NCBI GenBank assembly: GCA_963575745.1
Contig: CAUYUJ010000048.1
Span: forward strand, 496,001 to 560,000
DNA: 64,000 bases
Origin: Prorocentrum cordatum
Lineage: Eukaryota
Direction: 5' to 3'
In this document: positions 1 to 47,208 of the stretch, in pieces
Position numbering within the stretch: position 1 is the stretch's first letter
How the letters are laid out: every line of letters begins with the position of its first letter
Made by a program: the position numbers and the translations under genes
Notes under the pieces: generated by a model
Told to the model about the DNA's origin: nothing
Databases searched by the model: none
Seen by the model: only the letters and a program-made list of their open reading frames with translations

Positions 1-1079
1 GGCCCCCCCGGAAGACTCGGGCCCTTCCCTTGTTGGGCGTTGCGTCATCCGAGGCCTCCTAGCTGGGGTCCGAGCAGATGGGGTCAGAGGATCGCGCCGC
101 ATCGGCGATGCATCAACGATGCGGCTCGATGTGGAGCCCGTGTTTCCCCACGCCGGCGTCGCCGATGCATCGCCGATGCATCGCCGATACGTCGGAGATG
201 CATTGGCGATGCGGCGCGATCCTTCGACCCATTTACCATGAGGCGTCTAGTATTGGGGGAGGCGATAAAAAGAGGGGGGGAGAAGAATGATGCGCCTAAT
301 TATCGTGCACCTCAGGGACCCTACAGGGGCCCAAAAGGGGCGCGAAAGGCGTACGCTTCTTCGCCCAGCCGTGGACTGGCTTTTCTTCCTGTTGCGGGTC
401 TGGGGCCCAAGAGTCGATTACATGTAAGAGTGGCCCTTCGCCGCAGTGGCCTCTTGGTGCGGGCCCACCGGGGTCCCACGTTCGGTGGACGCGATGCGAG
501 GGCAGCGGCTTGCTTGCGCTTGGGTTCCCCTCCCCCCCTCGCGCTGCCCCTCGGGCCCCGCACCAGAGGTCACCCTTGCCTGGGAGACCACTCCTTGCGT
601 GCAGCCGAGAGCAGAGCAGCGCCCCCCGTGTAGGCCCTTCCGCTAGCGCAGACTGCCCCTGCCTCGCCGCCGACGCGAAAAGTGTATAGCCGAGAGCAGG
701 CCCCCTCTGGAGGCCGCAAGCTGTCGAACAGGTTCCGCGCGAGCTGTACGCGACGCGAGGGGTTCGGGGCATAGCTGACTGGCACAAGGCGATCGTTTTT
801 GTTGTTCATTGCTTTGCCGATCGGCGCGGGCCCTCGCACCTCCCCCCCCCTGGAGTAGATCTTGGCTGTTTTTTTGGGGCGCCTGTTTCGAGCAGGCGGA
901 GCCCCTCCCCCACAGGACGCAGTGTCGCAAACAGTCGCACTAAGCAGAGGTCCGGAGCCAGACCCCCCCCCGTCCCCCCCTCTTTAAAGGGGCCCACAAA
1001 CACACAAATAATTACTCCGACGGTAGGACCCCGCATGAGAATCTGTTTAGCTTACCCTTTGCCCTTTCCTCGCCCTCCT

Positions 1080-3060
1080 GGGGCTCCCGCCTGAGACTTC
1101 CTCGCAATTCACTCACAGACGAGGCTCCCGCTCGAGATTTCCTCCATACTCAAGTCTCAAGAGCCCAAAAGTGACGACAGTTACACGTTGCGGATGACCC
1201 GCTCGGATTCAAACATGAAGTGCGGGCCCCATAGGGAGGGGGCTCCCGCCTGAGACTTCCTCACAATTCACTCATCGACGAGGCTCCCGCTCGAGACTTC
1301 CTCCATATTCAAGTCTCAAGAGCTCAAAAGTGACGACAGTTGCTCGTTGCGGATGACCCGCTCGGATTCAAACATGAAGTGCGGGCCCCATAGGCAGGGG
1401 GCTCCCGCCTGAGACTTCCTTACAATTTACTCACAGACGAGGCTCCCGCCTGATACTTCCTCCATATTCAGGCCTCAAGAGCCCAAAAGTGACGACAGTT
1501 ACACGTTGCGGATGACCCGCTCGGATTCAAACATGAAGTGCGGGCCCCATAGGGAGGGGGCTCCCGCCTGAGACTTCTTCGCAATTCACTCACAGACGAG
1601 GCTCCCGGTCGAGACTTCCTTCACATTCAAGTTTCAAGAGCCCAAAAGTGACGACAGTTGCACGTTGCGGATGACCCGCTCGGATTCAAACATCAAGTGC
1701 GGGCCCCATAGGGAGGGGGCTCCCGCCTGAGACTTCCTCGCAATTCACTCACAGACGAGGCTCCCGCTCGAGACTTCCTCCATATTCAAGTCTCAAGAGC
1801 TCAAAAGTGACGACAGTTGCACGTTGCGGATGACCCGCTCGGATTCAAACATGAAGCGCGGGCCCCATAGGGAGGGGGCTCCCGCCTGAGACTTCCTCGC
1901 AATTCACTCACAGACGAGGCTCCCGCTCGAGACTTCCTCCATATTCATATCTCAATAGCCCAAAAGTGACGACAGTTGCACGTTGCGGATGACCCGCTCG
2001 GATTCAAACAGCCCCATAAGGAGGGGGCTCCCGCCTGAGACTTCCTCACAATTCACTCACAGACGAGGCTCCCGCTCGAGACTTCTTCTATACTCAAGTC
2101 TCCTGGGCCCAAAAGTGACGACTGTTGCACATTGCAGATGACCCGCTCGGATTCAAACATGAAGTGCGGGCCCCATAGGGAGGGGGCTCCCGCCTGAGAC
2201 TTCCTCACAATTCACTCACAAACGAGGCTCCCGCTCGAGACTTCCTCCATATTCAAGTCTCAGGAGCCCAAAAGTGACGACAGTTGCACGTTGCGGATGA
2301 CCCGCTCGGATTCAAACATCAAGTGCGGGCCCATAGGGAGGGGGCTCCCGCTTGAGACTGCCTCACAATTCACTCACAGACGAGGCTCCCGCTCGAGACT
2401 TCCTCCATATTCATATCTCAAGAGCCCAAAAGTGACGACAGTTGCACGTTGCGGATGACCCGCTCGGGTTCAAACATGAAGTGGGGGCCCCATAGGAAGG
2501 GGGCTCCCGCCTGAGACTTCCTCACAATTCGACTCACACTCACAGGTTCCCGCTCGAGACTTCCTCCATATTCAGGCCTCAAGAGCCCAAAAGTGACGAC
2601 AGTTGCACTTTGCGGATGACCCGCTCGGATTCAAACATGAAGCGCGGGCCCCATAGGGAGGGGGCTCCCGCCTGAGACTTCCTCGCAATTCACTCACAGA
2701 CGAGGCTCCCGCTCGAGACTTCCTCCATATTCATATTTCAAGAGCCCAGAAGTGACGACAGTTGCACGTTGCGGATGACCCGCTCGGATTCAAACATCAA
2801 GTGCGGGCCCCATAGGGAGGGGGTTCCCGCCTGAGACTTCCTCGCAATTCACTCACAGACGAGGTTCCCGCTCGAGACTTCTTTTATATTCAAGTCTCAA
2901 GAGCCCGAATGTGACGACAGTTGCACTTTGCGGATGACCCGCTCGGATTCAAACATGAAGCGGGGGCCCCATAGGGAGGGGGCTCCCGCCTGAGACTTCC
3001 TCGCGATTCACTCACAGACGAGGCTCCCGCTCGAGACTTCCTCCATATTCAGGCCTCAAG
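1080..3060. repeat. Tandem satellite, 159-bp unit, ~12.5 copies
   Basis: Unit anchor (CTCCCGCCTGAGACTT or variant) recurs at 1084, 1243, 1402, 1561, 1720, 1879, 2028, 2187, 2345, 2504, 2665, 2824 and 2983. One unit carries a 10-bp deletion. Confidence 0.97.
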
Positions 3061-3787
3061 TCAGCGAGTAGTGATGATGATGATGATGATCGTTCGATGC
3101 CGATGATGGTGAGTGATCGTGGGATGGTGATGGTGATGCTGATGGTGATGATGATGATGAGTGGGGAGTGATGGTGATGGTGATGATGATGCGGAGGAGG
3201 AAGCAAAGAGGAGCAGAGGAGAGGGAGGAGGAGGAGGAGGAGGAGAGATCCTGCGCGGAGGGTGTGCAGAGAAAACAAGAACCCCACCCAGGATGTGGGG
3301 AAATACACACACATAAAATAATTACCCATCTTTTCCTATATTTTCTGGGTTTTCGTCTTCGCACCCACTTCCCATATTTTCCAGTATTTTCTGGGGAATC
3401 GACGATTAATTGTGTCTGTGTGTTTTTTCCCCTCCCCCCTCTTCGCTCAATGTCGACACGCCGAATAAAAGAAAGTTCGCAAGTTCGGGGCGCCGCGCCG
3501 GCCTCCAGCAAGACGTCCGGGCTGCGGCGTCTGGACGTGGCGCTCGCAGGGCCTGCGCGCTCGCGCTGCGGTGCCAGCGTTTAAGGCAGGCGTGCCCCTC
3601 TACAGGAGAGATGTTCAAACCTTCTGTTAAAACATAGGCTGGGGACGATGTTTCGATCATTATTGTTTTTGTTCAGTCTTCTGGGGTGTTTTCGTTCGTC
3701 TTTACTTTGTTCTCGAACATCTGCCTGTCGGAGGACGTGCCCGACCTAGTGCCAGTGATCGGGGGCGGACCTGGCCCTCAGTTCTAG

Positions 3788-6975: not shown

Positions 6976-7924
6976 AGGTACGTCACAGGGTAGTGCCGGG
7001 CATGCTGGAGGCGTCTTGGGGGCCCCAGGAAACCTCTTGGGGCCCCTTTGGGGCCTCTTGGGGGCCTCTTGGGCTGTTTTGGGGCGCTCTTGCGCCCCGT
7101 CCTGTGGGCCTCTCGCGGCCGCCTTGGAGCTCTCTTGGGGTTCTCTTGGGCCGTCTTGGGGTCTCTTGGACCGCCTCGCGGGGCTTCTGTGGGCTATCTT
7201 GGGGCCCTCTTGGGCCGTAGTGGGGCCCTCCTGGGAGCTTCTTGGGCCGTTGTGGGACTATTTGGATGCTGCTTGGGCCATCATGGGAGTCGACAAGGGC
7301 GAAAACGTTAGAATCACTCCAACCACCTACAGAACATACATGATTTTGGCCTCTGTAGGCGCTCTTTTGGGTTCTCTTGGGGCTTTCTTGAGCTGGGCCT
7401 CATGGGCTCTTTTGGGGACATCTTGGGCATTTTGGGCGCCGTATTGTCGGGTTTCGAGGCCATCTTGAGCCATCTTGAGGCCCTTTTGGTTTCTCTAGAG
7501 GCCCAGGAGCCCGAAATACTATATTTGCCATTGGTTTTTCGTTGCATGTTGGGCCGTGTGGTGTCCTTCCCGGCCGTCTTGGGGCCCTCTTCGGGGCCTC
7601 TGGGGTCGTCTTGGGGGCCATCTTGGAGGCTGCTTGGGCCGTCATGGGCCCCCGAGAGTCGAAATGGGCGAGAACGCGAAAATCCTTCAAACCAACGGAC
7701 AATCAATGTTTTTCGCCTCTGGAGGTGCTCTTTGGGGCCCCCTTGGGGCTCTGTGGGGCTCGGAGGCTTTTTGGATCCTCTTGGGGCCACCTTGGGCCGT
7801 CTTGGGACCGTTTTGGTCCGTCTCGGGGCAGTCGTGGGCCGTCTTGAGGCCATCTTGGGCTCCCAGGAGGCCCAAGATGTCCAGTTTCCACCGGATGTGA
7901 GGGGACGAAATCGCATTCGAAAGG

Positions 7925-10214: not shown

Positions 10215-11574
10215 GCACTAGGTTGGGAGTGTCTGGATGTCGTCTGGACCCGCCGATGGGCTGGTTGGAGCTATAGACCGTTGGCGAGCCGAATATGGGC
10301 GTTCCGGGATCCTTTTCTGAGCCGTCCACTCGAGGGAGGGCGCAGCCTGAGGAGTAAAAGGGAAACGAGAAGTGAAGAAAACGAGGAATGCAACTCTGTG
10401 GGTTGCATATTGAGGAACCTTGCAGCTCGTATGCGGTGCCACCAGGATGACGATGGTGGTTGTGATTAGGATGATGGGGAGGACGACGACGTAATGGACG
10501 ATGAAGAAGTGCACATTGCCTCCTGGGGACCACTTGAGGACCACTTGGGGACCACTTTGGAGCCTCTTGGGGACCACTTGGGGGCCTGTTTTGGGCCTTC
10601 TCGGGGCCTCTTTCGGCCTTCTCGGGCGCCTGCTGACGGTGTCGGGGTCCCTTTTGGGCGGAGGGTTCGGAATGTCAGCTTGAGCTACCCACTTTGGGCC
10701 CTCTGGGGCTGTCTTGATCGACTCTTGGGCAGTCTTGAGGCCTCCTTGGGGGCGTCTTGGTACGTCTTGGAGCGATCTTGGCGGCCTCCTGAGCAGTCTT
10801 GGACGCAGTTGAGGCAAAGAGGCGACCATGTCAAAACTATGCGTTTCCCGTAAGGATTGGGACGATGGTTGCTTCGTGGGACCTTCTTGGGGTCTTCTTG
10901 GAGCCTTCTTGGCGCGTCTGGGAGGCCATCGTGGTTGTGTTCGAACTCTCCTCGGCGTGTTGGAGCCCAGCTTGCGCCAGCCGAGATGGCATCATGGGCA
11001 TCTGGAAGGCCACGGAGTTTAGGTTTGGAGGCTCAGGAGGCCCTGGGGTTGCGTCGAGGAGCCCGCCCTCCCCCCCGCCCCCTGGAGATGCAATTCTGGA
11101 GCCCTGGGGGGGAGGAGGCCCAATGTTTCAGTCGCCCTTTCGACCCCGGCAGGTGGGGGTCGGCGGACGCTGTACCGTTCACCGAGCGCGCTCCATTGCT
11201 CACAAAGTGCCTCCTCGCAAACGCTAGGACAAATCATGCGATGTACCCCGATGTAACGCATCATCATGAATCACCCACGGCGGATCCAGGGCATTTGCGA
11301 GTAGATACCCTGCGCATAGTGGAACGCGCTGGTCGAACCGCTCGAGCAGGAGCTCCCGCGAAAAGCACGAATTCTTTACGCTTCGCGTATCCCCACCAGC
11401 CCAGCTCACAACAGCAACTCTTGCGAAGCATGCCGACAGTCGTGTTTTTCAGGCGTGTTTCCGCTTGCCCCCGCATATCTCCCCTGTTCCTCCTTCCTCC
11501 CGCCTCCTTGTACATCCTCCTCGTGGGGGGAGCGGGAGAAGGACGAGGCGGAGGAGGAGGGAGAGAAAGCGCTC

Positions 11575-12000
11575 CTCGTGGTTTGAGTCGTTTGGAGTTT
11601 CTCGTCCTGGTGTGAGTCGTTCGGGCCCTTCTTCCTGGTGTGAGTCGTTCGGGCTCTTCGTGGTGTGAGTCGTTCGGGCTCTTCGTTCTGGTGTGAGTCG
11701 TTCGGGCTTCTCGTGGTGTGAGTTGTTCGGGCCCCTCGTCCTGGTGTGAGTCGTTCGGGCCCCTCCTCCTGGTGTGACTCGTTCGGGCTCCTCGTGGTGT
11801 GAGTCGTTCGGGGCCCTCGTCGTGGTGTGAGTCGTTCGGGCTCCTCGTGGTGTGAGTCGTTCGGGCGCCTCGTCCTGGTGTGAGTCGTTCGGGCCCCTCC
11901 TTCTGGTGTGAGTCGTTCGGGCTCTTCGTGGTGTGAGTCGTTCGGGCCCCTCGTCCTGGTGTGAGTCGTTCGGGCTCCTCGTGGCGTGAGGCGTTCGGGC
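11575..12000. repeat. Minisatellite (24-28-bp units, core GGTGTGAGTCGTTCGGGC)
   Basis: About 16 near-identical tandem cores with short variable linkers. Confidence 0.92.
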
Positions 12001-12923
12001 ACCTCGTCCCCTTTTGGGGCGTCTTGGGGGCCTCTTGGCGGCCCCAGGGGCTTCTAGGAGCGTCTTGGGTGCCTTGGGGGAGCCTCTTCGGGCCTCTTGG
12101 GAGCCTCTTGGAGGCCGTTTGGGGCGTCTTGGGGGCCTCTTGGCGGCCCCAGGGGCTTCCAGGAGCGTCTTGGGTGCCTCGGGGGAGCCTCTTGGGGCCT
12201 CTTGGGGGCCTCTTGGGGGCATCTTGGGGGCCTCTTGGAGGCCTCTTGGGGGCCTCCTGGGGGCCTCTTGGGGCCATCTTGGGGCCTCTTGGTGCCCCCT
12301 GGGCGCTTCTTGGGGCCATCTTGGAGGGAATCGATCACAGAAGAGGGGAGCTTTAATGAGCGCTGCCCCCTCAGAAGGGCAAAATGGGGCCAAAACCTTC
12401 GTAAAATCAATGATTTTGCCTTGAAAGAAGAGGGGAGCTTTAATGAGCGCTGCCCCCTCAGAAGGCCAAAATGGGGCCAAAACCATAGTAAAATCAATGA
12501 TTTTGGCTTCAAAGAAGAGGAGAGGGGTTTTTCTGCCTCCCCCCGTCGGGGCCAGAATCCTCGTGAGGGGTGTCGTTTTTTAGCCCTCCCAGGAGTCGAA
12601 AATGACCCCCCTGACGACCCGCGAGGCGCCCTCTCCAGGCCCAGGGGGAGGGGGTAGGGGGAGGGGTAAGCCCCTCCCCGAAGGGGAAGAAGGGGGGTTG
12701 AGAACAGAGAGAGCTCGCTAAACCACTCACGCCCAAAGGGCTGGTGGGATTATGCGGTAGATAATTGTTGTAGTCGATCTCATATTCGAAACGCTCTTAG
12801 CTTGCAATGGTTTCTCCCACGGACGGCGCCGCAGGGCGGCACGATGGCGGCTCCCGGCGAGGCGGCGGCCTTCAGGCCGCGGCCGCCGCGGCGAAGCGCC
12901 CTGCCCGCACCGACGACGACAAC

Positions 12924-14523: not shown

Positions 14524-16614
14524 GCCGTGAATTGCTGGTGGCGACGGTAACGGGCGCGACGCCACCGACGATGGTGATGACAGTGGTGATGACGCTGATG
14601 CCAATAGCGATGACAGTGGAAATAGGGGCGATATTATGGCGACGACGACGACGGTGATGCTGATGAAAATGGTGGTGATGCGGACGACGGTTGCAACGCT
14701 GACGCGGGCGATGATCGTGGTGTTGGCTATGATGATGGGGAAGTGCCCGCGCGCAGAATTTGACTAGAGCGACGATGTCAACGATGATAGCGGTGACGAT
14801 GATCCCGACGATAGTGATGATGATGTTGCTGCTGCTAACGATGATGAAGATGATGCCGATGGCGATGACAATGATGACTGACGATTGTGATGACGATCGT
14901 CCTGCTGAGGATGATGAGAATCTGCTCGCCCGCAGAAATCCGGACGTCGTGACATGTTGTTCTTGAACACACTTTTTCGGGGGTGGACGGAACTCCCACC
15001 CTGACACGTCGACTAGTGAATTGTCCGTTTCGGTTCTCGAGAGGGCGCCGTTTCCGTCATTTTCCAGGCGTTCGCCCGCCAGGTTTGGGCCCGAGGTCGT
15101 TTTCACCAAACCACGCTTTGCTAAAGGGGGTTCTGTCCATCCCCTATCTTTGGTTTCGTATATGTCTGAACGCTTCTGTGCTGCCGGTGGAGGAGGGGAC
15201 CCGTTGGCTCCATGGGAGTGCGGAGGGCCAGGGGGTTGCGGAGGAGGAAGGGGGAGGCCGACGGGCAGGACGATGGGGGAGGCGCAGGAGCAGGAGGAGG
15301 AGGAGGAGGAGGAGGAGGAGGAGGAGGAGGAGGAGGATCGGCGAGGTTGGAGGCGGACGAGGACGCGGCCCTCCGCGGGGACGCTGCTGCGGGGAGTCCC
15401 CGTGCCACGCTGCGGCCTCGGACTGAGCGCCTCTGTGCCGAGTCGGGCGCGCGAGCTCCGCGGCGTTGGACGGCGGCTTCGCGCCTCCGCGAGCGCGAAG
15501 GGGACGCGCGCGCGTGGCCGCCGCGTGGTCCGACGGAGTTTTTGTTGGGTGGTCGCGCCCGTGGCGGTGGACTGCGTTCGGCGTGCGCGCGCAGGTGGCC
15601 CGCCTCCTCCTCCTACCTCCCCTATCTCCTGTCCCCTGTTTACCATCCTCCTCGTCTCCCCTCCTCTTCCTCCTCCTCTTCCATCACCCCCTTACCTCCT
15701 CCCTCCTCCCATGACTCCTCCTCATTTCCTACTCCATCCTTCACACTCCCCGGCATCTCCCTATATCCCTTCCACCTGTCCTCACCATCTCCTCCTTGCC
15801 CTCCTCGCCCCACTCCTCCTCCTCCTCCCTCCATCTCCCTCCTCCCTATTGTTCTGCCCCTCCTCTCGGGCCTTCCTCCTCCTCTTGCCGCTCTGCTCCT
15901 GAGTCTTTCCTTCATCTACCTCCTCCTCCTCTCCTCCTCCTCCTCCTCCTCCTCCTCCCCCTCTCCTCCTCCTTTTACCCCTCCATCCTCCTCCTTCATC
16001 CTCCTCTTCCTCCGCATCCCCCCATGCGAACTCAGTCCCCCTCCCCTCCTCCTCCCTCCTCCCTACATTCAGCCTTCTCGTCTTCCTCACACTTCCTCCT
16101 TCTTCCTCTTTTGCTGTCTCGCTCCCCTCCTACGCCCCTCCTCCTCCTCACCCTCGCCTCTTAACTCCTTCTCCTCCCAATACTCTCTCTCCTTCATCTC
16201 CTTATCCTCTTCCTTTTCCTCCTCCTTCTCCTCCTTGGTTGTGGCCTCACCTGCCTCGACTCACCACCCACCAAAACCACCCCAAACCAAACCCGGAGGC
16301 CTCAATTTTGTTTTGGACAGTGCGCCAGTGGATCACCCTGAATACCACTAAAGCGGGGGGGGGGGGGTCCAGAACCGCCCCCCCCTCCCTCCCTCAAGGG
16401 GGGAGGGGTTCCGGGACCCCCCCCCTCCCCCCCTTAGGGGGGGGGGGGGGGTCCCGAACCCCCCCCCCCTCCCTCCCTTGAAGGGGGGGGATCCGGACCC
16501 GAAATGGAACGAATTACAACCGACTAGTCCCAATTCCAACCGTTCGGAGCGAATTGCAACCAGAAATGAGACCAATTCCAACCAGAAGTGAGACCCATTA
16601 CAACCATGGATGGG

Positions 16615-17065
<451 letters not shown>

Positions 17066-17489
17066 TAGGAGGATCCCTTTCGCATATTTTAGACTCGATA
17101 CAATTCGGTGCGGTTTTGCTTACGCTTCGGTGCCCTCTTGCTCATCTTAACACAGTGCTCGTGCGCAGACCAAAACTGAGACCAATTCCAACTCTAGCAC
17201 GTATGTTTGCTTCCAGAACCTCTGCGTTGACATAAGAGGTGTCACTTGGTCTTCACAGTCGTCTTGTGCTTCTCTACAATTAAAATCCTATTGTGAGGCT
17301 ATCCCAAGCAGGTTGGGATTGGGCCCAGTTTGCTTTTCGCACTGGTTGGGATTGGTCCCAGTTGGTAGGGATTGGGCCCAGTTGGTTGGGATTCGGCCCA
17401 CATGCGTTCCGGACCCCCCCCCCCTCCCCCCCTTTGCGCTGAAAAGGGGGGGGGCGGGCCCCTCCCTCCCCTCGTGTAAGGAGTACGGA

Positions 17490-18760
17490 GTTGGGAGTAG
17501 GGCGTGGTGAGTAGTGAGTAGTGAGTTAGTGCGTAATGGGTAGTGAGTATTGGGTAGCGAGAAGTGGGTAGTGAGTGGCGAATACGGAGTAGGGAGGAGG
17601 GAGTGGGGAGTAGTGTGTAGAGAACAGTGAGTAGTGTGTACTGACAAGTGGGTAGTGAGTGGCGAGTAGTGAATAGTGAGTAGTGAGTAGCGAGTAGCGA
17701 GTAGTGAATACTGAGTACGGGGTAGGGAGTAATGATTAGTGGGTAGTGAGTACTGAGTAGTGAGTAGTGGGTGGCGAGTAGTGATTAGTGAGTAGTGAGT
17801 AGTTGGTAGTGCGTAGTGCGTAGTGCGTAGTGAGTAGTGAGTAGTGAGTAGTGAGTAGTGAGTACTGAGTATCGAGTAGTGAGTAGTGAGTAGTGAGTAC
17901 TGAGTAGTGAGTACTGAGTAGTACGTAGTGCGTAGTGAGTGGTGAGTAGTGAGTAGTGATGAATAGAGAGTAGTGGGTAGTGGCCGTGGGTAGTGAGTAG
18001 TGAGTAGCGAGTAGGGAGCAGCGAGTAGTGAGTAGTGAGGAGCGAGTAGGGCGTAGAGAGTAGTCAGTAGTGAGTAGTGGGTAGTGATTAGTGAGTAGCG
18101 AGTAGCGAGTAGCGAGTAGGGAGCAGGGAGTAGGGAGTAGTGAGCAGTGAGTAGTAAGAAGTGGGTAGCGAATAGTGGGTAGTGAGTAGCGATTGGTGAG
18201 TAGTGGGTAGTCGGTAGTGACTAGTGACTAGTGACTAGTGCCTAGGTAGTTGTGTGACTAGTGACTAGAGACTATGAAGTGATTAGTTAGTAGGGTAGTT
18301 AATAGTGAGTAGCGGGGAGTGGGTAGTGAGTATTGAGTAGCGAGTATGGGAGTAGCGAGTAGTGAGTACTGAGTACTGTGTAGTCAGTACTGTGTAGGGA
18401 GTAGGGTGCAGCGAGTAGCGGGTAGTGGGTAGTGAGTAGTGATTTGTGGGCAATGAGTAGTTAGTAGTGGATAGTGGGTAGTGAATATTGAGTAGTGATT
18501 AGTGAGTAGTGAAAAGGGAGTAGTGAGTAGTGCTTAGTGAGTAGTGAATATTGAGTAGTGGGTACTGAGGAGTGAGTAGTGAGGAGTGAGTAGGGAGGAG
18601 GGAGTAGTGAGTAGGGAGTAGTGAGTAGCGAGTAGTGGGTGGTGGGTAGTGAGTAGTGGATAGTGAATAGTGAGTCGTGGGTAGTGAGTAGGGGTAGTTA
18701 GAAGTGAGTAGCGAGTAGCGAGTACTCAGTAGTGGGTCGTGAGCAATGAGCAGTGAGCAC
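17490..18760. repeat. Degenerate 7-bp (GAGTAGT)n array
   Basis: About 1.27 kb of GTGAGTA variants. Confidence 0.95.
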
Positions 18761-19742
18761 TCTTTGGGGCTGGGGTTAGTGGTTGGGGTTAGGATTAGCG
18801 GTTTGGGTTAGGGTGAGGACTAGGGGTAGGGGTGGCGGGGGTCGGGTTCCGGAGTCAGGGGGCGTCGTGGCGAAAGGGGGGGAGGGGGGGGGGGTCGGAC
18901 CCCCCTCCCCCCTTTTTTGAAAGGGGAGGAGGGTGGGGGGGGGTTCCCCGACGACGGGGTCGGGGAAAGGGGGGGGGGGGGGGGGGGGTCCCCGACGACG
19001 GATCGGGGAAGGGGGGGAGGGGGGGGGGTCCCCGACGACGGATCGGGGAAGGGGGGAGGGGGGGGGTCCTAACCCCCCCCCCGTTGGGGAGATCCAGCGG
19101 CGCACCCTCCTCAATTTGCCCTCATTTTTCCAGTGTGGGGGGGGAATGGGGGGAGGGACGCATTAACAAAAACATGTATGGAACCCGTACCCCACCCCCA
19201 CCCCGAAGTCCGGGTCCTCGGGTTGGGTTGGGGTGGCCTGGTGGGCAGTCACTGATCTGGCAGAACGGCGACGCCTTGTGAGTTCTCGTGCGATTTCGGC
19301 GAGGGCGTGCGCGCTGCGTGCTGTTCTGTGTGAGAGCCACTGGCCTCGTGACAGTTTCCGACCAGCCACGTCTTGATCTCGTGAAGCACCCGCGGTCCTG
19401 GACGGATTTTGGCTTGCGCGCGCAGCGGCGCCCGCATATGCCCCGAAATGCGTTTGTTCAAGTGGTTCTTCGGACAAGTCACATCAGAGTTCAGCGCATG
19501 TGCATCGCGGAGTATTCTGCACAAGATGACCGGGGGTGTCGATATCAGGATGGTTGGCATGCTCTATGTTCAGGATGCACGATCGTGCAGAGCAAATGCG
19601 AACACGCAAATAATATGCGGAGGAGGGCCGTTATCCGTTATTCCTGGCCTGGGTGTGGGGGGCTGTGGATTCGTATCTCGTGGAACTTTTGCTTGGGGAT
19701 TCTCACTTCTCCCCTGAGGAACAAGGCCTCTCTGTTGGTCTC

Positions 19743-19763
19743 CCGTAGCCATTTTGGCTCAAG
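19743..19763 (+). other. Dinoflagellate spliced leader (DinoSL) copy, genomic relic
   Basis: CCGTAGCCATTTTGGCTCAAG matches the invariant 21 nt of the 22-nt DinoSL (DCCGTAGCCATTTTGGCTCAAG). It is followed by UTR and ORF, not by an SL-RNA intron, so it is not an SL RNA gene. Confidence 0.95.
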
Positions 19764-19809
19764 TCGATCCGCGCGCTGGCAGGGCCCTGCGGCCGTCGGC
19801 GGGCGCGGG

Positions 19810-21090
19810 ATGGCCGCGGTCGATATGCGTGTGCTGGCGCCAGCGGTGCGTGCCGCCGCTGCTGGAGCAGCCGAGGGAGGCGGGGGCCGCCATCAGGTGG
19901 CCGCGGCCGTCGCGGCTGCCATGCGGGTGGGGGCTGAGCTGCTGGCGGCTGGCGATAACGTTATGCTAGAGGTTCCGGAGGTCAAAGCCGAGGTGGACGA
20001 GCGCCAGCGGCTTGCGCGACCTCACCTTGTGGCAGCAGTGCAGGCCGGCGCGGCTGGGACGCCGATTCAGGTGTCGGGCCAGAGGAAGGCATTTCGGAAC
20101 GTCGCTCTCCACGACAAGCTTGGGGAGGGCGTCGATGCGCTGCCGAAGACGGGCGCGGAGGCGACGAGCATGCAGCGCAGCAGCAGGCGCCGCCGCCGCA
20201 AGCCCAAGGGCTCCCTTGGTGCGGGCTCCACCGACGGCTCCGAGGGGGTCGAGGACATGGAGCCGCAGCAGAAGCAGGAGACGATGGTGGACTACAAGCC
20301 GCTCGCCAAGCTCATCAATCAGGTGCAGGGCGACAAAGCAGAGCAGGTTTTCGACGGCAAGCAGGTGCAGCTGGCGGAGGTGCTGGCGGTCCTCGCAGGC
20401 GAGGTCGTGCAGCTCAAGGACCAGCTCGACGTGGTGAAGAAGGAGCGGAGGGAAGCGGTGCGTGTCAAGATGCCTTTGGACGAGCCCTTCCAGGCCGCTG
20501 CTCGCGCTGAATCCAGCGCGCAGGTCGACGGCATGCAGGACAAGTGCGAGAACGGTGACACCGAGCATATCGGGAAGGTTGGGGTGGAGGGCATCATCAA
20601 CCCCGTCGGTGGGCAGGACAAGCACGAGGCGAAGGACGGCCTCGTGGACGGAAGTGTAGCCAACGCCAAGGAGCAGATCGTAAAGACGGAGCAGGATGAA
20701 GTCTACGGAGAGCTGGAGGGCACCGCCAACCACATCACGATGAAGGTGTTCAAGGGCTCGGGCGGCTCGATGGCGCTGGCGATGCACGCCGATGATGCCG
20801 AGATCATCCCCGAGGTGAATATCGAGACGGCGGTGTACGATACCCTCGATTGCGTGAATAACCCCCCGCTTGCAGACGATCGCAATGTCGATAAGCGGGC
20901 GGAGCTGGAGGGCATCGTCAACCCCATCACTATGAGCGAGTTCTCCCCTGGGACAGTTTTGGAGGGCGGCGCGGCAGCTACCTTCGAGGAGCGGGTGCTG
21001 ACTCTCATGGCGGAGGAGGGCGTGACGCGCAGTGTGGCGACGCTCATCGCGGAGGCCATGGCTGAGGTCGACGCCAGCAAGGCGCGCTGA
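19810..21090 (+). CDS. Intronless retrogene ORF, 426 aa, hypothetical protein (Ala-rich N-terminus, basic RRRRRKPK patch, HSP70 C-terminal-like fragments)
   Basis: First ATG after the SL is at 19810 (MAAVDMRVLAP...), TGA at 21088-21090. Codon usage is strongly GC3-biased with no stops or frameshifts. ELEGTANHITMKVF and IETAVYDTLD...ELEGIVNPITM resemble HSP70 lid helices. Confidence 0.8.
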   Translation: MAAVDMRVLAPAVRAAAAGAAEGGGGRHQVAAAVAAAMRVGAELLAAGDNVMLEVPEVKAEVDERQRLARPHLVAAVQAGAAGTPIQVSGQRKAFRNVALHDKLGEGVDALPKTGAEATSMQRSSRRRRRKPKGSLGAGSTDGSEGVEDMEPQQKQETMVDYKPLAKLINQVQGDKAEQVFDGKQVQLAEVLAVLAGEVVQLKDQLDVVKKERREAVRVKMPLDEPFQAAARAESSAQVDGMQDKCENGDTEHIGKVGVEGIINPVGGQDKHEAKDGLVDGSVANAKEQIVKTEQDEVYGELEGTANHITMKVFKGSGGSMALAMHADDAEIIPEVNIETAVYDTLDCVNNPPLADDRNVDKRAELEGIVNPITMSEFSPGTVLEGGAAATFEERVLTLMAEEGVTRSVATLIAEAMAEVDASKAR

Positions 21091-24000
21091 GCTTGGGGGC
21101 GGCCTGTCGCTCCTCCTCGGAGCTCCCGTCCTCCCTCCTCCTGGCCAGCGCTGGCGACGGCATGGCGAGGCTCGTCGGAGGGTTGCTGGGAGTAGACAGG
21201 TTCGGTCAACGGTGGCCAAAAAAAAAAATTCTCTGTTGGTCTGGCGGCTATGTTGCCCCCGTCGCCACCGCGTCGCCGCCTCGTCGCCGCCCGTCATGTG
21301 GACATGTCTGTCCGTCTGGAGGCTATGTTGCCGCCGTCACAGCTGCGCCGCCGCTTCGTCGCCGCCCGTCGCCTGGGCTTGTCTGTCGGTCTGGCGGCTA
21401 TGTTGCCCTCGTCGCTGCCCCGTCGCCGCTTTAGACTGCACAGCATATGCAGCATCACATCGATTGCGCAAATATTGTACCGCATATATTCTCCTTTCTA
21501 AAAAGAGAAAAGATAGACTCCACCCCCCCTCCCGGAGTTATCCGTACCCCTCTCGGGTATGTAAGTCATATATGATTCTGACCACATGTCCACCCGAAAT
21601 ATAATTTACACTATCCCCGGGGGGCCGGGATCGGTCCCCCTGAGGTTCCCTGGTAAAAAACGATACGCGGGGACATGCTTTGTTCTAACATAAGACTTGT
21701 TCACGAATCCCTTGCAAAACATTGGACGAAGTGCACACGCGCGCGTCGTCGCGCGCGCATGCCGGAATCCTTCAAAAACCTTCGGTGTCGGAAGGATTTC
21801 GCAATCGAGTTTCCAACAAAACATACAACAACCACAGGGTTTCGCAACACAGATTTGCTAAAAAAGCTTACGCGCGAGCTCTTGCGAAAGCTTACGAAAT
21901 CCATCGGTTCTTTTTAAGATGTTCACAAAATGCTACCAAACGGGCTTCGCGCGCGCGCATGTCGAAATCTGTCGAACGCCCTTGTGCGTATGTCGTCGCG
22001 AGAATTCTTTGCAAAAGACGGGACGAAGTGCAGACGCGCGCGTCGTCGCGCGCGTATGCCGGAATCTTTCAAACCCATCGGCTTCCCAAGGATTTCAAAA
22101 CCGTGTGTTTAAAAAACCCACAAAAACAATGTTTCGCAACACGGATTTTCAACAAAAGCGTGCGCGCGCGCTCTTGCGTCGTCGTCGTCGTCGCCGTCCT
22201 CCCTCCTCCCGCGTCGTCGTCGTCGTCGCCTACGTCGTCCTCTGTCTTTCTTCGTGTTTGTCGTCGTTGTCCTCTTTGGCGTCGTGGTCGTTTCCGTCGT
22301 CGTTGTCGCCGTGGTCGTCCTTCCTCCTCCTCCCTCGTCGTCTTCGTCGTCGTCGTCGTCGTCCGTCGTCGGCGTCTCGTCGGCGTCCCTCCTATTTCGT
22401 CGTCGTCGTCGTCGTTGTCGTCGTCGTCGTCTTCCCTCCTCCCTCGTCGTTGTCGTCGTCGGCGTCGCCGTCCTTCCTCCTTCTTCGTCGTTCGCGTCGT
22501 CGCCATCCTCCCTCCTCCCTCGTCGTTGTCTACGTTGTCGTCGTCGTCGTCCTCCCTCCTCCCTCGTCGTGGGCGTCGTCTTCGTTGGCCACGTCGTCGT
22601 CGTCGTCGTCGGCGTCGGCGTCGTCGTCTTCGTCGTCGTCGGCGGCGTCATCCTCGTCGCCGTCGTCGTCGTCGTCGTCGGCGTCGTCGACGTCGTCGTC
22701 GTCGCCGGTGTCGTCGTAGTCGGTCTTAGGAGGTTTTGCGAACCAAGTTGCGGGTGTATGGGTGGGATGTTTGCAAGAGCATGGGATGTGTCAAATCATT
22801 TGTTAAAATCAATTGCACCACATAGACTGCACCATGTAGCTTGCACAACATAGTGCACCACGTGGATTGCACAACATTGATTGGCACAAAATCAATTGCA
22901 CTATGTAGCTTCTATTTTCTAAAGAGGAGATAGGTTCTACCACCCTCCCCCCCGACTTAATCGATTCCCGGGAACCTATGCAAAACACATCTGATTCTGA
23001 CCCAATGTCCCTCCTACCTGTGAAGTCATACTGTCCCAGCCAGGCCGGTATCGGTACCCCCTCGGTTCCCTTGCAAAAAAAATGTTGCACGCGCACTCGT
23101 TTATTAGACATCGTAAGCTTACAAGAATCTCTTGCAACAAATCTGACGAAGTGCGCACGCGCGCGTCGTCGCGCGCGCTTGCCGGAGTCCTTCAAAAACG
23201 GTCGGTTTCGGAAGGATTTCAAAATCGAGTGTCGAAAAACGTTACAAGACACATGGTTTCGCACAGGGGATGTTCAACAAAAGCGTGCGCGCGCTCTTGC
23301 GAATTCCTAAGAACATACGCTTTGTTTTCCAGCATTCTCATACATTGCTACCAAACGGGCTTCGCGCGCGCATGTCGAAATCGTGCGGACGCCCTTGCGC
23401 GTGTGCTGGGGTGGCACGATCCGTGTCAAATACTACCATGGGAGCCACTCTCGCGCGTCGGCCGCGCGCGCATTTCGAATTCCTTCCAACCTTCATCACC
23501 GACACGAAGACGCCGTCATCGTCGTCGGCGTGATCAGCATCGGCGCCGTCACTGGCTGCCCCGTTGTCGTTGCCAGCAGCATCACCAGCATCGCTACAAG
23601 CATCATAGCGTCCACCGTCGTCGACTTTGCCATGATATCGCGCACTCCCAAGTCGCCGAGTCGCACTGAAGTGCCCGTTGGGATGTGCCGAGCGGGCAGC
23701 GCCACCGCGTTCGCGTCGGTCGCGCCAAATTAGCTGGCCGCTGCGCGCGCGGGCATGCGCGGGCTAATGCGGCCGCAGAGGTGCACCAGCCAACACCCAG
23801 CACTCATCGCAACCGCTCCCGCGCGGGTTTTGCAAACCAAGCTGCGGGTGGGTGGGTGGGATGATCGCGCGAGCAGTGGGAAAAGACAACTTCAAATTTG
23901 GCAAATGAATTGCACCGTTTAGACAGGACCGCCTAGCTGGCACAACCTTTTTATTAAACTGCATATTGCACCGCCTGGCTTGTACAACATATGGTCCTTC

Positions 24001-32860: not shown

Positions 32861-35442
32861 GCTCCCTCGCCCTTGGGCAGTGAGGCTTCTCTGCGTGAAG
32901 AGGGGCGGTGCGGGCCTCCAGCTGCCTGAACACTTGGGGGGGGCCGATATTCGTCCTCCGGAGCCGGGTTTCGGACACCAGCAGCGTCGGAAAACCTTAG
33001 CTCAACGATGGTCCCGGGGCCGTCGAGGATACGATCGTCCTGCAGCCTGGAGCATCCAGCCCCGAGAGTGGCACGCGATGGCAGCACACGACGTCGGAGG
33101 TCTTCGAGCGGAGCTGGTGGATGTCGAAGACAGCTCGCGCTGAGGGTCACGGTGGCCCTCAGTCTGAGACCCCTGGTCTTCCCGCGCCAACAGAAAATAT
33201 TAGGAGAATTTATCTCAGTTCGAGCATCTGCACGCCTGTGTCGGACCCAGGGGCCGTCAAGCAAAAAGAGGCAGGACGAACGGAAACGCCCCTGGGATTG
33301 GGCCGAAAGTTTTGGGTGCTGTTCGGTTTGCAATCAGACCGTCGAGGGTCTGTCGGCAGCGCGCACAAGGGGTCGGGCGAGGCACGTGGCCCTGCGAGAG
33401 AAGGGATTAATGCCTAGGCGGGGCGGGAGGCTTCTGAAGAAGGCTTCCGAGAATGCAGCTGGGCTTCCAAGGAAGCCCCCCGATCTTCCTGGAAGGCTCC
33501 CCACCCTCGCCCCCCTCGCCCTCTCTTGGGGCGCCTCTCTGAGGGCTTCTGGGAGACCTCATGAGCGGGCGCTCAGGGCCTCTCGGGAGCTTTTGTTTGG
33601 TGGCAGTATTGTTGGAAAACTCTCACACGACTTCTTCGCTATCCCCGTCTTAGGCCCCTCTCGATGGTCTCACGGCTCTCCGGGGCCGTCGTGGGCCCCT
33701 CTTGGAGGCCTCTTGGGCCGTCTTGGAGCGATCTTGAGAGCCTCTATTGGGCCGTCTTCGGGTGCTGGAAGCTTGAAAACGGCGAGAACGCCGCTGACAT
33801 TGAAATTCGATATGTTTGGCCTCTTGGAAAAAACCCTCGGGCCGACTCGATGCCGTCTTGGATCGTCGTGAGGCCCTCTTGGGGCCATCTTGGGCTGTCT
33901 TCGGGCCTTCTGCCCCTCGGACAGACAAACGTCCCGCGACACCTGGGGAGTCACGCGGCACACCCCAGAAATTCCAGTTCTCGGGGGTCCACAGTCACAG
34001 GCAGCAGGGATTCTGGACGGACGCGTGGGCAACCGGGGGTACAGGGCCCCTTCAAGAGTATTCCCAGCACTCGAATGCTCGATACAGGGGTCCGTGGCTG
34101 CGGCACGGTGGCGGACGGCACAGGTTGCGAGGTGTGAAGACCATGAACAGACACTGTGCCGCTATGCTTCTGGAGATGGCCCGCCGAATCTAGTCGCTCA
34201 TCGCATTCGTTGGCTCATGGTGCATCATCGTTAGCACTCTGTTGTGTTGAGAGGTGCCGTGGATGAGAGCATCAAGCCAGGAGGGGAGATACTCGCCAAA
34301 GCGAAGCGACGAAGCGTCACCCCCCAAGCACTGCTCACTTGGAGCCCCGCTGGAGGCGTCACCCGAGGTCTACCAGCAAAGCCCCAAAGCACGAAAAGGC
34401 AAGGAACACAACGACATGGATACGTCTATCCTGTGCTGAGCCCTTTGAAGGTTTCTGGTAGCATCTTGGGTTAGCATCGGGAAGGCTTCTGAGAGCCTCC
34501 TGGTGCCTCTCAGGGGCTCACTGGGGCCTCTTCGGGGCCACGTCGGGGCTGTCTTGGGCCATGTAAGGCCACTTTGGGGCTATCTTGGGGCCTCTTCAGA
34601 TTGAGTTGGGGCCGTCTTTGGGCCCGTCACCCATTAATCATCGGTCTTGTACCGCTCTTGGGCTCCCTTGGGGCCCTCTTGGGGCGCTGCTGGGGCCTCT
34701 GGGGGACATTTAAGCCCTCGTGGAACCCTTCTGTGCTCGTTTGGATCTATCTTGGGCGACCTTCGAGTGATCTTGATGCTTGAGAGGGCCATCGGAAGCG
34801 ACCCGGGAGTAAAGCCACAACCATTGAAAACATACCTCAAGATGTTGCAGTAGTATGTTGGCCTTCCTGGAAGCTACCTTGGACATCATTGGTCCATCTC
34901 GGAGCTATCTTAGGGCCTTTTGGGGTTGTGTTGGGGCCATCTTGCGGCCTGTCACCAGTGGTCCTTGCTCTTGGGACCTCTTGGGGCCATCTTGTTTCCC
35001 TTGGGGGCTCTTGGAGCCCTCTTCTAGGGACATCTCACGCGATCTCGGAGCCATCTTGAAGCGTCAGAAGGACATGGGAATCGAATCGGGGAGAAAGCCA
35101 CAATCACTGGAACCAGGTTGCTGAATATATTCTGCCTTGCAGGCCGTTTTGTGGCCGTCCTGTGGCCTCTCGGAAGCATGTTTGAGACGAGGTGGCGGTC
35201 TGGAGACGCATCTTGGAGGCAACGTTGGTAGCTGTTTGTCGGTTTTTAAGCCGCCCGGCAGTTCCGGCATTCCGCGGCGGGATCGCCCAGGGATCTCCTG
35301 GCGATTTTCTTTGCGGGATCCCCAGGGGCCGCCACGCGAGCAAGGCGTGGACCGTACCATTTTCGGGAGCCTCGCACCAGAGATTCTAGCATGCCTTCGG
35401 CCCGCTGCGTGGGCGATTTTTTTCGCCCGGAGTGGAAATGAG

Positions 35443-46399: not shown

Positions 46400-47208
46400 G
46401 ACGCATCTTTATTTGGCTTTCCAGAGTCGATTGCTATTCTAGAAGCTTCGCGTAACCCCACCAGCCCAGACGAGTTGCCCTGATCAGGGATGTGGAGGAG
46501 CATGCATTGGAATGACGTACTGGGAAAGACGTCATAGTGGGAGGATGGTGGAGGAATCGGAGGAGGAGCAGGAGGAGGAAGAGGAGGAGGAGGAGGAGGA
46601 GGAGGAGGAGGAGGAGTAGGAGCAGGGAGAGGGGGAGGGGGAAGAGGGTGGAAGAAGGATGAGGAATAGGCGGATGAGGAATATGTGAATGAGGAGGGGA
46701 ATGAGGAGACGCAGGAGGAGGAGGAGGGCGAGCAGAAAGGCCAGAGGCCTCTTGGGGCATCTTGGGGGACTCTTGGCAGTCCTGGGGGCCTTTTGGGGCG
46801 TCTTGGGTGCTTCTGGGGGGCCGCTGGGGTCCTCTTGAGGGTCTCTTAGGGGCCTCTTGGGGGAATCCTGGGGGCCTCTTGGGGCCTTCTGGGCACCTCT
46901 TGGGGCTGTCTTGGACACCTTTGGGAACCTCGGAGGCCATCTTGGGGCCATCTAGGCGGCGTTCGATCAAAGAAGGACGGCACCAGGGGTCCAAACCCGT
47001 AGTAACATCAATGATTCCGGCCTTCTCGCCGAGGCCATCTTGGACGCTCCAACGACCCGCGACCTCCCCCTCTGGGTCCAGGGGGAGGGTAATTCGAGGG
47101 AGGGGTCAAGACACCCTCCCCGCCCGCAAGCTGCCTCGCTCCCTTCCACCCGCCCTGCCAACACAGACGTAGCACCCGGGCCTCAACATGCTCAGCGGTC
47201 TTGTACAG

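What the first reader, a model, noticed from the sequence alone, without database searches (positions are those of the whole stretch)
19729..21242. Complete, apparently young retroposed trans-spliced mRNA: TSD, spliced leader, intact ORF, poly(A), TSD
Seen in sequence: an identical 13-bp duplication TCTCTGTTGGTCT brackets an unmutated DinoSL core, an uninterrupted 426-aa ORF and an A11 tail. The TSD is also the start of unit 1 of a ~75-bp tandem triplet (TCTGTyyGTCTGGmGGCTATGTTGCC at ~21232, ~21307, ~21382), so the empty site can be reconstructed. Established: dinoflagellates recycle SL-capped mRNAs into the genome, and TSD plus poly(A) is the signature of LINE target-primed reverse transcription. 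Inference: this is a recent full-length event inside an intron of a same-strand host gene, and may belong to a protein-coding, RT-less retroposon family that uses trans-splicing to define its 5' end and borrows LINE RT.
Basis: partly seen in the sequence, partly recalled or inferred. Interest (0 to 1): 0.9.

Follow-up and report, generated by a model that had tools for sequence, protein, structure and literature searches.

The report
Fresh retrocopy of a dinoflagellate mRNA
A complete DNA copy of a mature dinoflagellate messenger RNA, with its spliced leader, intact coding region, short poly(A) tail and a 13-base duplication of the insertion site, sits in repeat-rich DNA; this kind of event is already known to be common in these algae, but this copy shows its insertion marks unusually clearly.

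Summary
A 13-bp direct repeat lies at 19729-19741 and 21230-21242. It brackets an exact 21-nt DinoSL core, a 46-nt 5'UTR, a 426-codon ORF, a 127-nt 3'UTR and an A11 run. The 3' repeat copy is the start of unit 1 of a 75-bp tandem array.

Transcript contigs from four public runs lie on 19758-21216 with 0 or 1 differences. So the insert is collinear with an expressed mRNA.

Best reading (0.85): a young processed retrocopy of an SL-trans-spliced, polyadenylated mRNA, inserted by LINE-like target-primed reverse transcription. DinoSL-tagged retrogenes are well documented, so this is a new member of a known kind. The modest added value is the complete marks (full leader, tail, 13-bp duplication), which I did not find described for dinoflagellate retrogenes.

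The "RT-less mobile family" idea is not supported. There is one copy in the window and one full-length transcript per run at 85% likeness or more. The ORF belongs to an old, diverged orphan family: a conserved 130-aa helical N-domain with unrelated C-termini.

"Intron of a same-strand host gene" could not be tested. No whole genome was available, so copy number, the parent gene and read support for the junctions remain open.

The parts
19729..19741 (+). 5' copy of the 13-bp target-site duplication (TCTCTGTTGGTCT)
19742..19763 (+). DNA-encoded dinoflagellate spliced leader: C, then the exact 21-nt core at 19743-19763. TCGATCC follows it, not a GT intron, so it is not an SL RNA gene.
   Evidence: Consensus as printed in the PMC5585692 passage. 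No Rfam match in the window.
19764..19809 (+). 5'UTR of the copied mRNA (46 nt)
   Evidence: The X1 contig covers it from 19758.
19810..21090 (+). Intact ORF of 426 codons plus TGA (P0001). GC 65.7%, GC3 82%.
   Evidence: Transcript contigs show 0-1 differences.
19810..20214 (+). Coding region of the conserved N-terminal five-helix domain (residues 1-135), shared with 97 of 105 library hits
21091..21217 (+). 3'UTR (127 nt). Transcript contigs end at 21212-21216.
21218..21228 (+). A11 remnant of the poly(A) tail, followed by one T (21229)
21230..21242 (+). 3' copy of the 13-bp target-site duplication
21232..21431 (.). Pre-existing 75-bp tandem array (2.7 units). Its first 11 bases are part of the duplicated target, so the empty site can be read off.

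Best explanation
Positions 19742-21229 are a processed retrocopy. A mature nuclear mRNA was reverse-transcribed in full and inserted at a staggered break in repeat-rich DNA. That mRNA was already capped by trans-splicing of the 22-nt dinoflagellate spliced leader and was polyadenylated after ...CGGTGGCC.

The most likely route is target-primed reverse transcription, with the enzymes of a LINE-type element working in trans:
1. A nick on the bottom strand at the left edge of TCTCTGTTGGTCT.
2. cDNA synthesis primed on the poly(A) tail and carried through to the 5' end of the leader.
3. A second nick 13 nt away on the top strand.
4. Fill-in, which gives the 13-bp duplication.

Shown: the footprints, and collinearity with an expressed mRNA. 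Inferred: the enzyme, the order of steps and the young age.

The ORF encodes an orphan protein of a large dinoflagellate family with a conserved helical N-terminal domain. Its biochemical function is unknown.

Whether this copy is itself transcribed is open. Its relic leader keeps both AG dinucleotides behind a pyrimidine-rich stretch. A read-through transcript could therefore receive a fresh leader, as in the published mRNA recycling model.
For: 1. All four hallmarks are present and exact: a 13/13 duplication (1 of 200,000 random positions), an exact 21-nt leader that is unique in the window, the window's only A run of 10 or more, and an uninterrupted ORF.

2. The 3' duplication copy runs on into unit 1 of a 75-bp array. 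The 5' copy is followed by the leader instead. So the target was duplicated, not merely repeated.

3. Transcript contigs of four runs from four studies lie on the insert without gaps:
- X1: 19758-21212, 0 differences in 1455 nt. In the contig, 18 letters of sequencing adapter come directly before CTCAAG.
- X13: 19795-21216, 0 differences.
- X6: 19773-20927 and 20898-21212, 0 differences.
- X15, a poly(A) metatranscriptome: 19791-21195, 1 difference.
These contigs start inside the leader and end 2-6 nt before the A run.

4. The best of 24 listed runs hold 0.73 of the sampled words of 19500-21500. The insert is 1487 of those 2001 bases, or 0.74. That these are the same part is my inference.

5. 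The ORF looks like a real gene. GC3 is 82%. It ends in TGA, the stop favoured in Alexandrium species (PMC3229502 passage). It has relatives: 105 hits at E<=1e-3, including C-terminal matches P0002 (54% identity, query 333-426) and P0003 (60%, query 284-375). The N-domain model has pLDDT 91.9.

6. Retroposition of leader-bearing mRNAs is established in dinoflagellates:
- 22-23% of the genes of two Symbiodiniaceae genomes (PMC6050394 passage).
- The recycling model (PMC3229502, section 11 passage).
- 477 retrogenes counted in a Prorocentrum minimum transcriptome (PMC12014239 passage).
Against: - No parent gene, and therefore no lost intron, could be shown, because no genome is held.
- No reverse transcriptase or endonuclease domain was found in the 189 window ORFs scanned.
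- The nick site (...AGAGA/GGCC on the bottom strand) is not the T-rich site that mammalian L1 prefers (recalled knowledge).
- One T lies between the A11 run and the duplication, and C replaces the consensus D at leader position 1. Neither is explained.
- Identity to the transcripts does not date the event if this locus is itself the source of those transcripts.
- A genomic A-rich polyadenylation motif (AAAAG/C) has been reported at dinoflagellate poly(A) sites (PMC3229502 passage). An A run alone is therefore not proof of a copied tail. Here it is 11 A, followed by T and then the duplication.
- No DNA reads spanning the junctions were seen.
Confidence: 0.85

Rival explanations
1. One reading: the insert is one copy of a mobile, protein-coding, RT-less retroposon family. 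The family defines its 5' end by trans-splicing and spreads with borrowed LINE enzymes.
For: - The ORF belongs to a large family: 97 of 105 library hits share its N-terminal domain.
- One other member, P0084, begins LAQAILAQ. That is how the 3' end of the leader followed by a truncated relic leader would read. So at least one more member has passed through retroposition.
Against: - There is a single copy in 64 kb.
- At 85% likeness or more, one full-length contig per run lies on the insert in four runs.
- Family members are only 30-55% identical, and only over about 130 aa. Their C-terminal parts are unrelated (4 of 2701 pairs alike). A recently amplified element would give many near-identical full-length copies.
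- About a fifth of dinoflagellate genes carry relic leaders anyway (PMC6050394 passage). One more retrogene in the family is expected by chance.
Confidence: 0.06
2. This is an established retrogene rather than a fresh insertion. The locus is the working gene, possibly the only one, and the source of the identical transcripts. It would be transcribed from upstream and given a new leader at one of the AGs of the relic.
For: - The transcripts are 100% identical in runs labelled as two organisms.
- The ORF is intact, with strong coding composition and conserved relatives.
- The pyrimidine-rich duplication plus CCCGTAG resembles a splice acceptor (sequence; inference).
- The recycling model predicts exactly such reuse (PMC3229502 passage).
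Against: - The duplication, the A11 run and the 21-nt leader are all unmutated. Relic leaders are reported to decay with age (PMC3229502 passage).
- No contig with a leader followed by a truncated relic was seen for this gene. The longest contig starts only at 19758, so this is untested rather than negative.
Confidence: 0.2
3. It is an assembly or library artefact: cDNA or a chimeric read was built into the genome assembly.
For: - No DNA run holding the flanks was available.
- The insert is identical to an abundant transcript.
Against: - A contaminating cDNA would not create an exact 13-bp duplication of the flanking genomic sequence.
- The 3' copy of that duplication is continuous with a local tandem array.
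Confidence: 0.03

Closest known systems
DinoSL-relic retrogenes, also called 'mRNA recycling'. Slamovits & Keeling 2008 is cited in PMC6050394 and I did not read it. I saw passages of Jaeckisch et al. 2011 (PMC3229502), Song et al. 2017 (PMC5585692) and the 2025 transcriptome survey (PMC12014239).
   Same: A DNA-encoded spliced leader lies directly upstream of an intronless coding sequence. It arose by reverse transcription of a mature trans-spliced mRNA.
   Different: - Published cases are mostly recognised from truncated or decayed relics in transcripts or upstream of gene models. Here the whole 21/22-nt leader, the tail and the target duplication survive in genomic DNA.
- The passages I read say the reverse-transcribing mechanism is unknown, with LINEs presumed and Ty1/copia proposed (PMC5585692).
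- 'target site' and 'direct repeat' occur 0 times in PMC5585692, PMC6050394 and PMC12014239.
L1-mediated processed pseudogenes and retrogenes of mammals (recalled knowledge; mentioned in passages of PMC12014239 and PMC5585692)
   Same: A full mRNA copy, a 3' poly(A) run, a variable-length target-site duplication in the 7-20 bp range, and no element sequence of its own.
   Different: - The target here is not T-rich.
- An extra T follows the tail.
- The 5' end is a trans-spliced leader, so full-length copying can be verified to the base.
- The enzyme source in this genome is unidentified.
LTR-retrotransposon-mediated (Ty1-type) retrogene formation, proposed for dinoflagellates by Lee et al. 2014 as cited in PMC5585692 (I did not read it)
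   Same: Reverse transcription of a cellular mRNA by a retroelement enzyme.
   Different: As I recall, that route gives short fixed-length duplications and LTR-derived flanks. Here the copy abuts a 13-bp duplication directly, with a poly(A) run at the junction. This fits target-primed reverse transcription better.

Membership tests
Processed retrocopy made by target-primed reverse transcription | Collinear with the mature mRNA, with no intervening sequence | tested here: met
   Contigs of 4 runs lie on 19758-21216 with 0 gaps and 0-1 differences.
Processed retrocopy made by target-primed reverse transcription | 3' poly(A) run at the mRNA's end | tested here: met
   A11 at 21218-21228 is the only run of 10 or more A in the window. 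Contigs end at 21212-21216.
Processed retrocopy made by target-primed reverse transcription | Target-site duplication directly flanking both ends | tested here: met
   A 13/13 repeat. The control gave 1 of 200,000 random positions. The empty site can be read from the array.
Processed retrocopy made by target-primed reverse transcription | A separate, usually intron-bearing, parent gene | not testable with these tools
   No whole genome is held. Two JGI metagenome scans found no relative.
Processed retrocopy made by target-primed reverse transcription | A LINE-type endonuclease and reverse transcriptase available in the genome | not testable with these tools
   None was found among 189 window ORFs. 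The genome is not available.
Processed retrocopy made by target-primed reverse transcription | L1-like T-rich nick site (TT/AAAA type; recalled) | tested here: not met
   The target reads GGCC/TCTCTG on the top strand. Other LINE clades have other preferences, so this only argues against an L1-like endonuclease specificity.
DinoSL-relic retrogene (mRNA recycling) | A DNA-encoded DinoSL upstream of the coding sequence that is not an SL RNA gene | tested here: met
   The exact 21-mer at 19743-19763 is followed by UTR, not by GT. The consensus is printed in PMC5585692.
DinoSL-relic retrogene (mRNA recycling) | Transcripts from the copy carry a new leader in front of a truncated relic | tested here: inconclusive
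   The longest contig begins at 19758, inside the leader, behind adapter letters. The 5' end is not resolved.
Non-autonomous retroposon family | Many near-identical copies with different target-site duplications | tested here: inconclusive
   One copy in the window and one full-length contig per run at 85% likeness or more. The genome-wide count was not possible.

The most novel reading that the evidence does not exclude
The locus is a self-renewing retrogene. The pyrimidine-rich target duplication plus the two AGs of the intact relic leader would let any read-through transcript acquire a fresh leader. That recreates an mRNA that can be copied again. Repeated cycles of this kind, each landing in new surroundings, would have helped build the family of at least 97 clusters that keep one N-terminal helical domain but have unrelated C-terminal regions. 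P0084 would then show the leader-plus-relic signature of a second such cycle. The locus would also be a base-resolved case that dinoflagellate mRNA recycling runs by LINE-type target-primed reverse transcription. I found no such case in four literature searches.
Probability: 0.12. Interest if true: 0.65.

Novelty: new member of a known kind. Interest (0 to 1): 0.35.

Why it matters
Retroposition is held to be a main driver of gene number and genome size in dinoflagellates. Yet the passages I read say the enzyme and mechanism are unknown (PMC5585692).

A copy that keeps the full leader, the tail and a 13-bp duplication points to LINE-like target-primed reverse transcription rather than an LTR or integrase route. 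It also gives a template for a genome-wide search: leader ... A run, flanked by a direct repeat. Such a search could date and count recent events.

It is one locus of a common kind, so it illustrates known biology and does not change it.

The ORF's family, a confidently folding N-terminal domain with hypervariable C-termini and no Pfam or PDB relative, is a separate small lead among dinoflagellate proteins of unknown function.

Tried and rejected
Copy number and parent gene
Copy number, the parent gene and read support for the junctions therefore remain open.
- Two scans of JGI metagenome contigs found no relative: P0001 and a 9-sequence alignment, A4. Alignments A2 and A1 were too diverged for that tool.

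Sequencing runs
- None of the 24 listed runs held more than 0.73 of the words of 19500-21500.
- In the four runs laid, no contig lay on 19382-19654 or 21384-21900. Only thin, low-identity pieces touched 19291-19381 and 19655-19745, in X6.
- This absence of cover is no evidence about transcription of the flanks or about an empty allele.
- Short pieces at 19202-19253 (85-90% alike, many contigs) fall in G/C-rich low-complexity sequence. I rejected them as an upstream exon.

Protein identity
- Pfam: 0 families for P0001, and nothing shared among 32 relatives.
- PDB profile search: 0 matches.
- Foldseek against PDB: no match at E<=1e-3 for the whole model or the N-domain model.
- VIA-align wide search: best Z 7.5 and 7.1, covering only the first helical hairpin (residues 1-54). 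That is within the tool's stated background for helical models.
- Word-indexed protein search: nothing in three tries.
- The Atlas did not hold P0001. It gave nothing usable for homologue P0006.

Host gene and LINE in the window
- Of 256 ORFs of 120 aa or more, I scanned the 189 that passed an entropy filter.
- Four weak, low-complexity or sub-threshold hits appeared (DUF2457, Collagen twice, Cpta_toxin). I reject all four.

Other searches
- Rfam: 0 matches.
- ARAGORN gave three overlapping tRNA calls at 16353-16473. They lie in G/C-run palindromes and I reject them.
- Earlier findings of this scan held nothing on this genome or sequence.

Literature
- DinoSL plus 'target site duplication' returned one paper, on Amoebophrya introners.
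- dinoflagellate plus retrogene plus TSD returned 0 papers.
- Subscription-journal papers, including Slamovits & Keeling 2008, were not searchable.


Full report
WHAT IS THERE

Read on the + strand, the locus has these parts in order:
- TCTCTGTTGGTCT at 19729-19741.
- C at 19742.
- The exact 21-nt core of the dinoflagellate spliced leader, CCGTAGCCATTTTGGCTCAAG, at 19743-19763.
- A 46-nt 5'UTR.
- ATG at 19810.
- A 426-codon ORF ending in TGA at 21088-21090.
- A 127-nt 3'UTR.
- A11 at 21218-21228.
- One T at 21229.
- TCTCTGTTGGTCT again at 21230-21242.

The published leader consensus is DCCGUAGCCAUUUUGGCUCAAG, with D = U, A or G (PMC5585692 passage). The core here is therefore perfect, but position 1 is C. 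The leader is followed by UTR sequence, not by a GT intron, so this is not an SL RNA gene. Rfam finds nothing in the window.

IS IT MORE THAN CHANCE?
- The 13-mer occurs exactly twice in 64 kb, even with one mismatch allowed. 0 of 100 shuffles gave two matches.
- For 200,000 random window positions, the upstream 13-mer recurred at the same spacing (+-3) once.
- The leader is unique with up to 3 mismatches allowed. A 14-nt relic core with up to 2 mismatches is also unique.
- The tail is the only run of 10 or more A or T in the window.
- Tandem Repeats Finder reports a 75-bp array at 21232-21431, with 2.7 units and 80% matches.
- The alignment shows that the 3' repeat copy is the start of unit 1 and runs on into GGCGGCTATGTTGCC, like units 2 and 3. 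The 5' copy is followed by the leader instead.
- The pre-insertion site can therefore be read directly, and the repeat is a true duplication of the target.

RNA EVIDENCE

No whole genome is held for this window, so I used public runs.
- Of 24 runs listed for 19500-21500, 16 hold half or more of the sampled words. The best hold 0.73.
- The insert makes up 1487 of those 2001 bases (0.74). I infer that these runs hold the insert and not its flanks.
- I laid four runs from four studies on 19200-21900 at 85% likeness or more:
  - X1: a 1473-nt contig lies on 19758-21212 with 0 differences. Its first 18 letters are sequencing adapter, fused directly to CTCAAG.
  - X13: 19795-21216, 0 differences.
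  - X6: 19773-20927 and 20898-21212, 0 differences.
  - X15, a poly(A)-selected metatranscriptome: 19791-21195, with one G>A at 21016.
- No gaps or joints were reported.

The insert is thus collinear with an expressed mRNA. That mRNA begins in the leader and ends 2-6 nt before the A run. What these contigs cannot show is whether the mRNA comes from this locus or from a parent gene. They also cannot show whether genomic reads span the junctions.

THE GENE

The ORF has coding-like composition: GC 65.7% and GC3 82%. It has no Pfam family.

A full HMMER pass over 1.84 billion representatives gave 105 hits at E<=1e-3, 14 at E<=1e-10 and none at E<=1e-30.
- Seven hits match only the middle or C-terminal part. 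Examples are P0002 (54% identity, query 333-426) and P0003 (60%, query 284-375). They look like fragments of orthologues.
- 97 hits share only the first ~130 residues.
  - In 89 of them the domain starts within their first 30 residues.
  - 85 of those 89 begin with M.
- The parts behind the domain are unrelated to each other. Of 2701 pairs among the 74 remainders of 60 aa or more, 4 are alike at E<=1e-5.

With this alignment, AlphaFold models residues 1-130 as five helices with high confidence: pLDDT 93-98 in the whole-protein model and 91.9 for the domain alone. The rest is mostly below 50. No PDB relative emerged by profile, by Foldseek or by VIA-align (best Z 7.5 and 7.1, on a two-helix hairpin only).

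So the copied mRNA encodes a real but uncharacterised protein of an old, diverged family.

One member, P0084, starts LAQAILAQ. That is how the end of a leader followed by a truncated relic leader reads in one frame. That member therefore appears to be an expressed retrogene. The inference runs from protein letters back to nucleotides and is not proven.

SURROUNDINGS

The window is 60.1% G+C and full of tandem and low-complexity repeats.
- tblastn of all 106 proteins hits only the insert.
- Of 256 ORFs of 120 aa or more, the 189 that passed my entropy filter gave no credible Pfam domain. There was no reverse transcriptase, no endonuclease and no recognisable host gene.
- I therefore cannot confirm or refute that the insert lies in an intron of a same-strand gene.
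- The composition resembles the 59.7% genome and 65.9% coding G+C reported for Prorocentrum cordatum (PMC10666404 passage). That is a lead about the kind of organism, not an identification.

MECHANISM

A full-length 5' end, a 3' A run and a 13-bp duplication are the classic footprint of target-primed reverse transcription by a LINE-type endonuclease and reverse transcriptase acting on a cellular mRNA. This rests on established knowledge of L1-mediated processed pseudogenes, which I recall; it is mentioned in PMC12014239 and PMC5585692.

I infer these steps:
1. A bottom-strand nick at the left edge of the 13-mer.
2. Priming on the tail.
3. Copying through to the leader's first base.
4. A top-strand nick 13 nt away.
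5. Fill-in.

An LTR or integrase route, which PMC5585692 cites as another proposal, fits less well. As I recall, it gives short fixed-length duplications and element-derived flanks.

Points that do not fit neatly:
- The nick site is not T-rich.
- One T lies between the tail and the duplication.
- C stands at leader position 1.
- GGCC precedes both the 5' duplication copy and the A run. At 4 nt in GC-rich sequence, I treat this as chance.
- A genomic A-rich polyadenylation motif (AAAAG/C) is reported for some dinoflagellates (PMC3229502 passage). It does not explain eleven A followed by the duplicated target.

AGE AND ACTIVITY

Nothing has mutated. The duplication is 13/13, the A11 run is pure, the leader is 21/21 and the ORF is intact. 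This fits a young insertion.

The 0-difference match to transcripts is expected either for a young copy of an identical parent or if this locus is itself the source. The recycling model (PMC3229502, section 11 passage) says a copy can be re-expressed when a new leader is spliced to an AG of the relic. Here both AGs (CCGTAG, CTCAAG) are intact behind a pyrimidine-rich stretch. The available contigs do not reach far enough 5' to show a leader-plus-relic form.

COMPARISON WITH WHAT IS KNOWN, AND NOVELTY

DinoSL-tagged retrogenes are well known and abundant. That makes this a new member of a known kind.

What I did not find in print is a description of target-site duplications or retained tails for such retrogenes.
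- 'target site' and 'direct repeat' occur 0 times in PMC5585692, PMC6050394 and PMC12014239.
- Searching DinoSL plus 'target site duplication' gave only a paper on Amoebophrya introners.
- Searching dinoflagellate plus retrogene plus TSD gave none.
- The library lacks most subscription papers, and I saw no supplements.

It remains formally open until the genome is searched.

VERDICT
- Observation: confirmed.
- Interpretation: partly supported.
- It is an ordinary retrocopy with unusually clear insertion marks.
- Interest: 0.35.

Noticed in passing
window 19810-20214 (P0001 residues 1-135) and library proteins P0004-P0106: A large orphan protein family. 97 of 105 hits share a conserved N-terminal five-helix domain of about 130 aa (pLDDT 91.9) that ends in a basic RRxRGRRR-like stretch. 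The C-terminal parts are unrelated (4 of 2701 pairs alike). No Pfam or PDB relative was found.
   Followed up: partly
library protein P0084, residues 1-9: This family member begins LAQAILAQG. That is how the 3' end of the spliced leader followed by a truncated relic leader reads in one frame. It suggests an expressed retrogene with the two-leader signature.
   Followed up: partly
window 20893-20935: A 34-40-nt piece of the ORF, in the ...ELEGIVNPIT... region, is shared at about 88-95% with other contigs. In run X1 some of these are very abundant (summed depth 16019 in that bin). A similar motif recurs three times within P0001. The meaning is unknown.
   Followed up: no
window 17300-18760: A long satellite of 7/14/21-nt units of the GAGTAGT type lies just upstream of the insertion site.
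   Followed up: no
window 16350-16480, 18850-19080 and about 21520-21650: Recurrent palindrome-like elements are built of long G runs and C runs around a short TCC..GA core. ARAGORN miscalls three overlapping tRNAs in one of them. They may be a dispersed hairpin repeat.
   Followed up: no
window 6997-7660, 10516-10930, 11974-12343, 33684-33756, 46796-46975, 48130-49126, 57567-57671: An 11-nt periodic GGGGCCTCTTG-type repeat recurs in many blocks across the window, always on the same strand (families D9, D16, D19). The period is not a multiple of 3, so it is probably non-coding.
   Followed up: no
window 963-3161: A tandem array with a 159-bp period, at least 12 copies, up to 95% alike (family D12).
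   Followed up: no
window 19725-19728 and 21214-21217: GGCC stands immediately before the 5' duplication copy and immediately before the A run. This may be 4-nt microhomology, or chance in GC-rich DNA.
   Followed up: no
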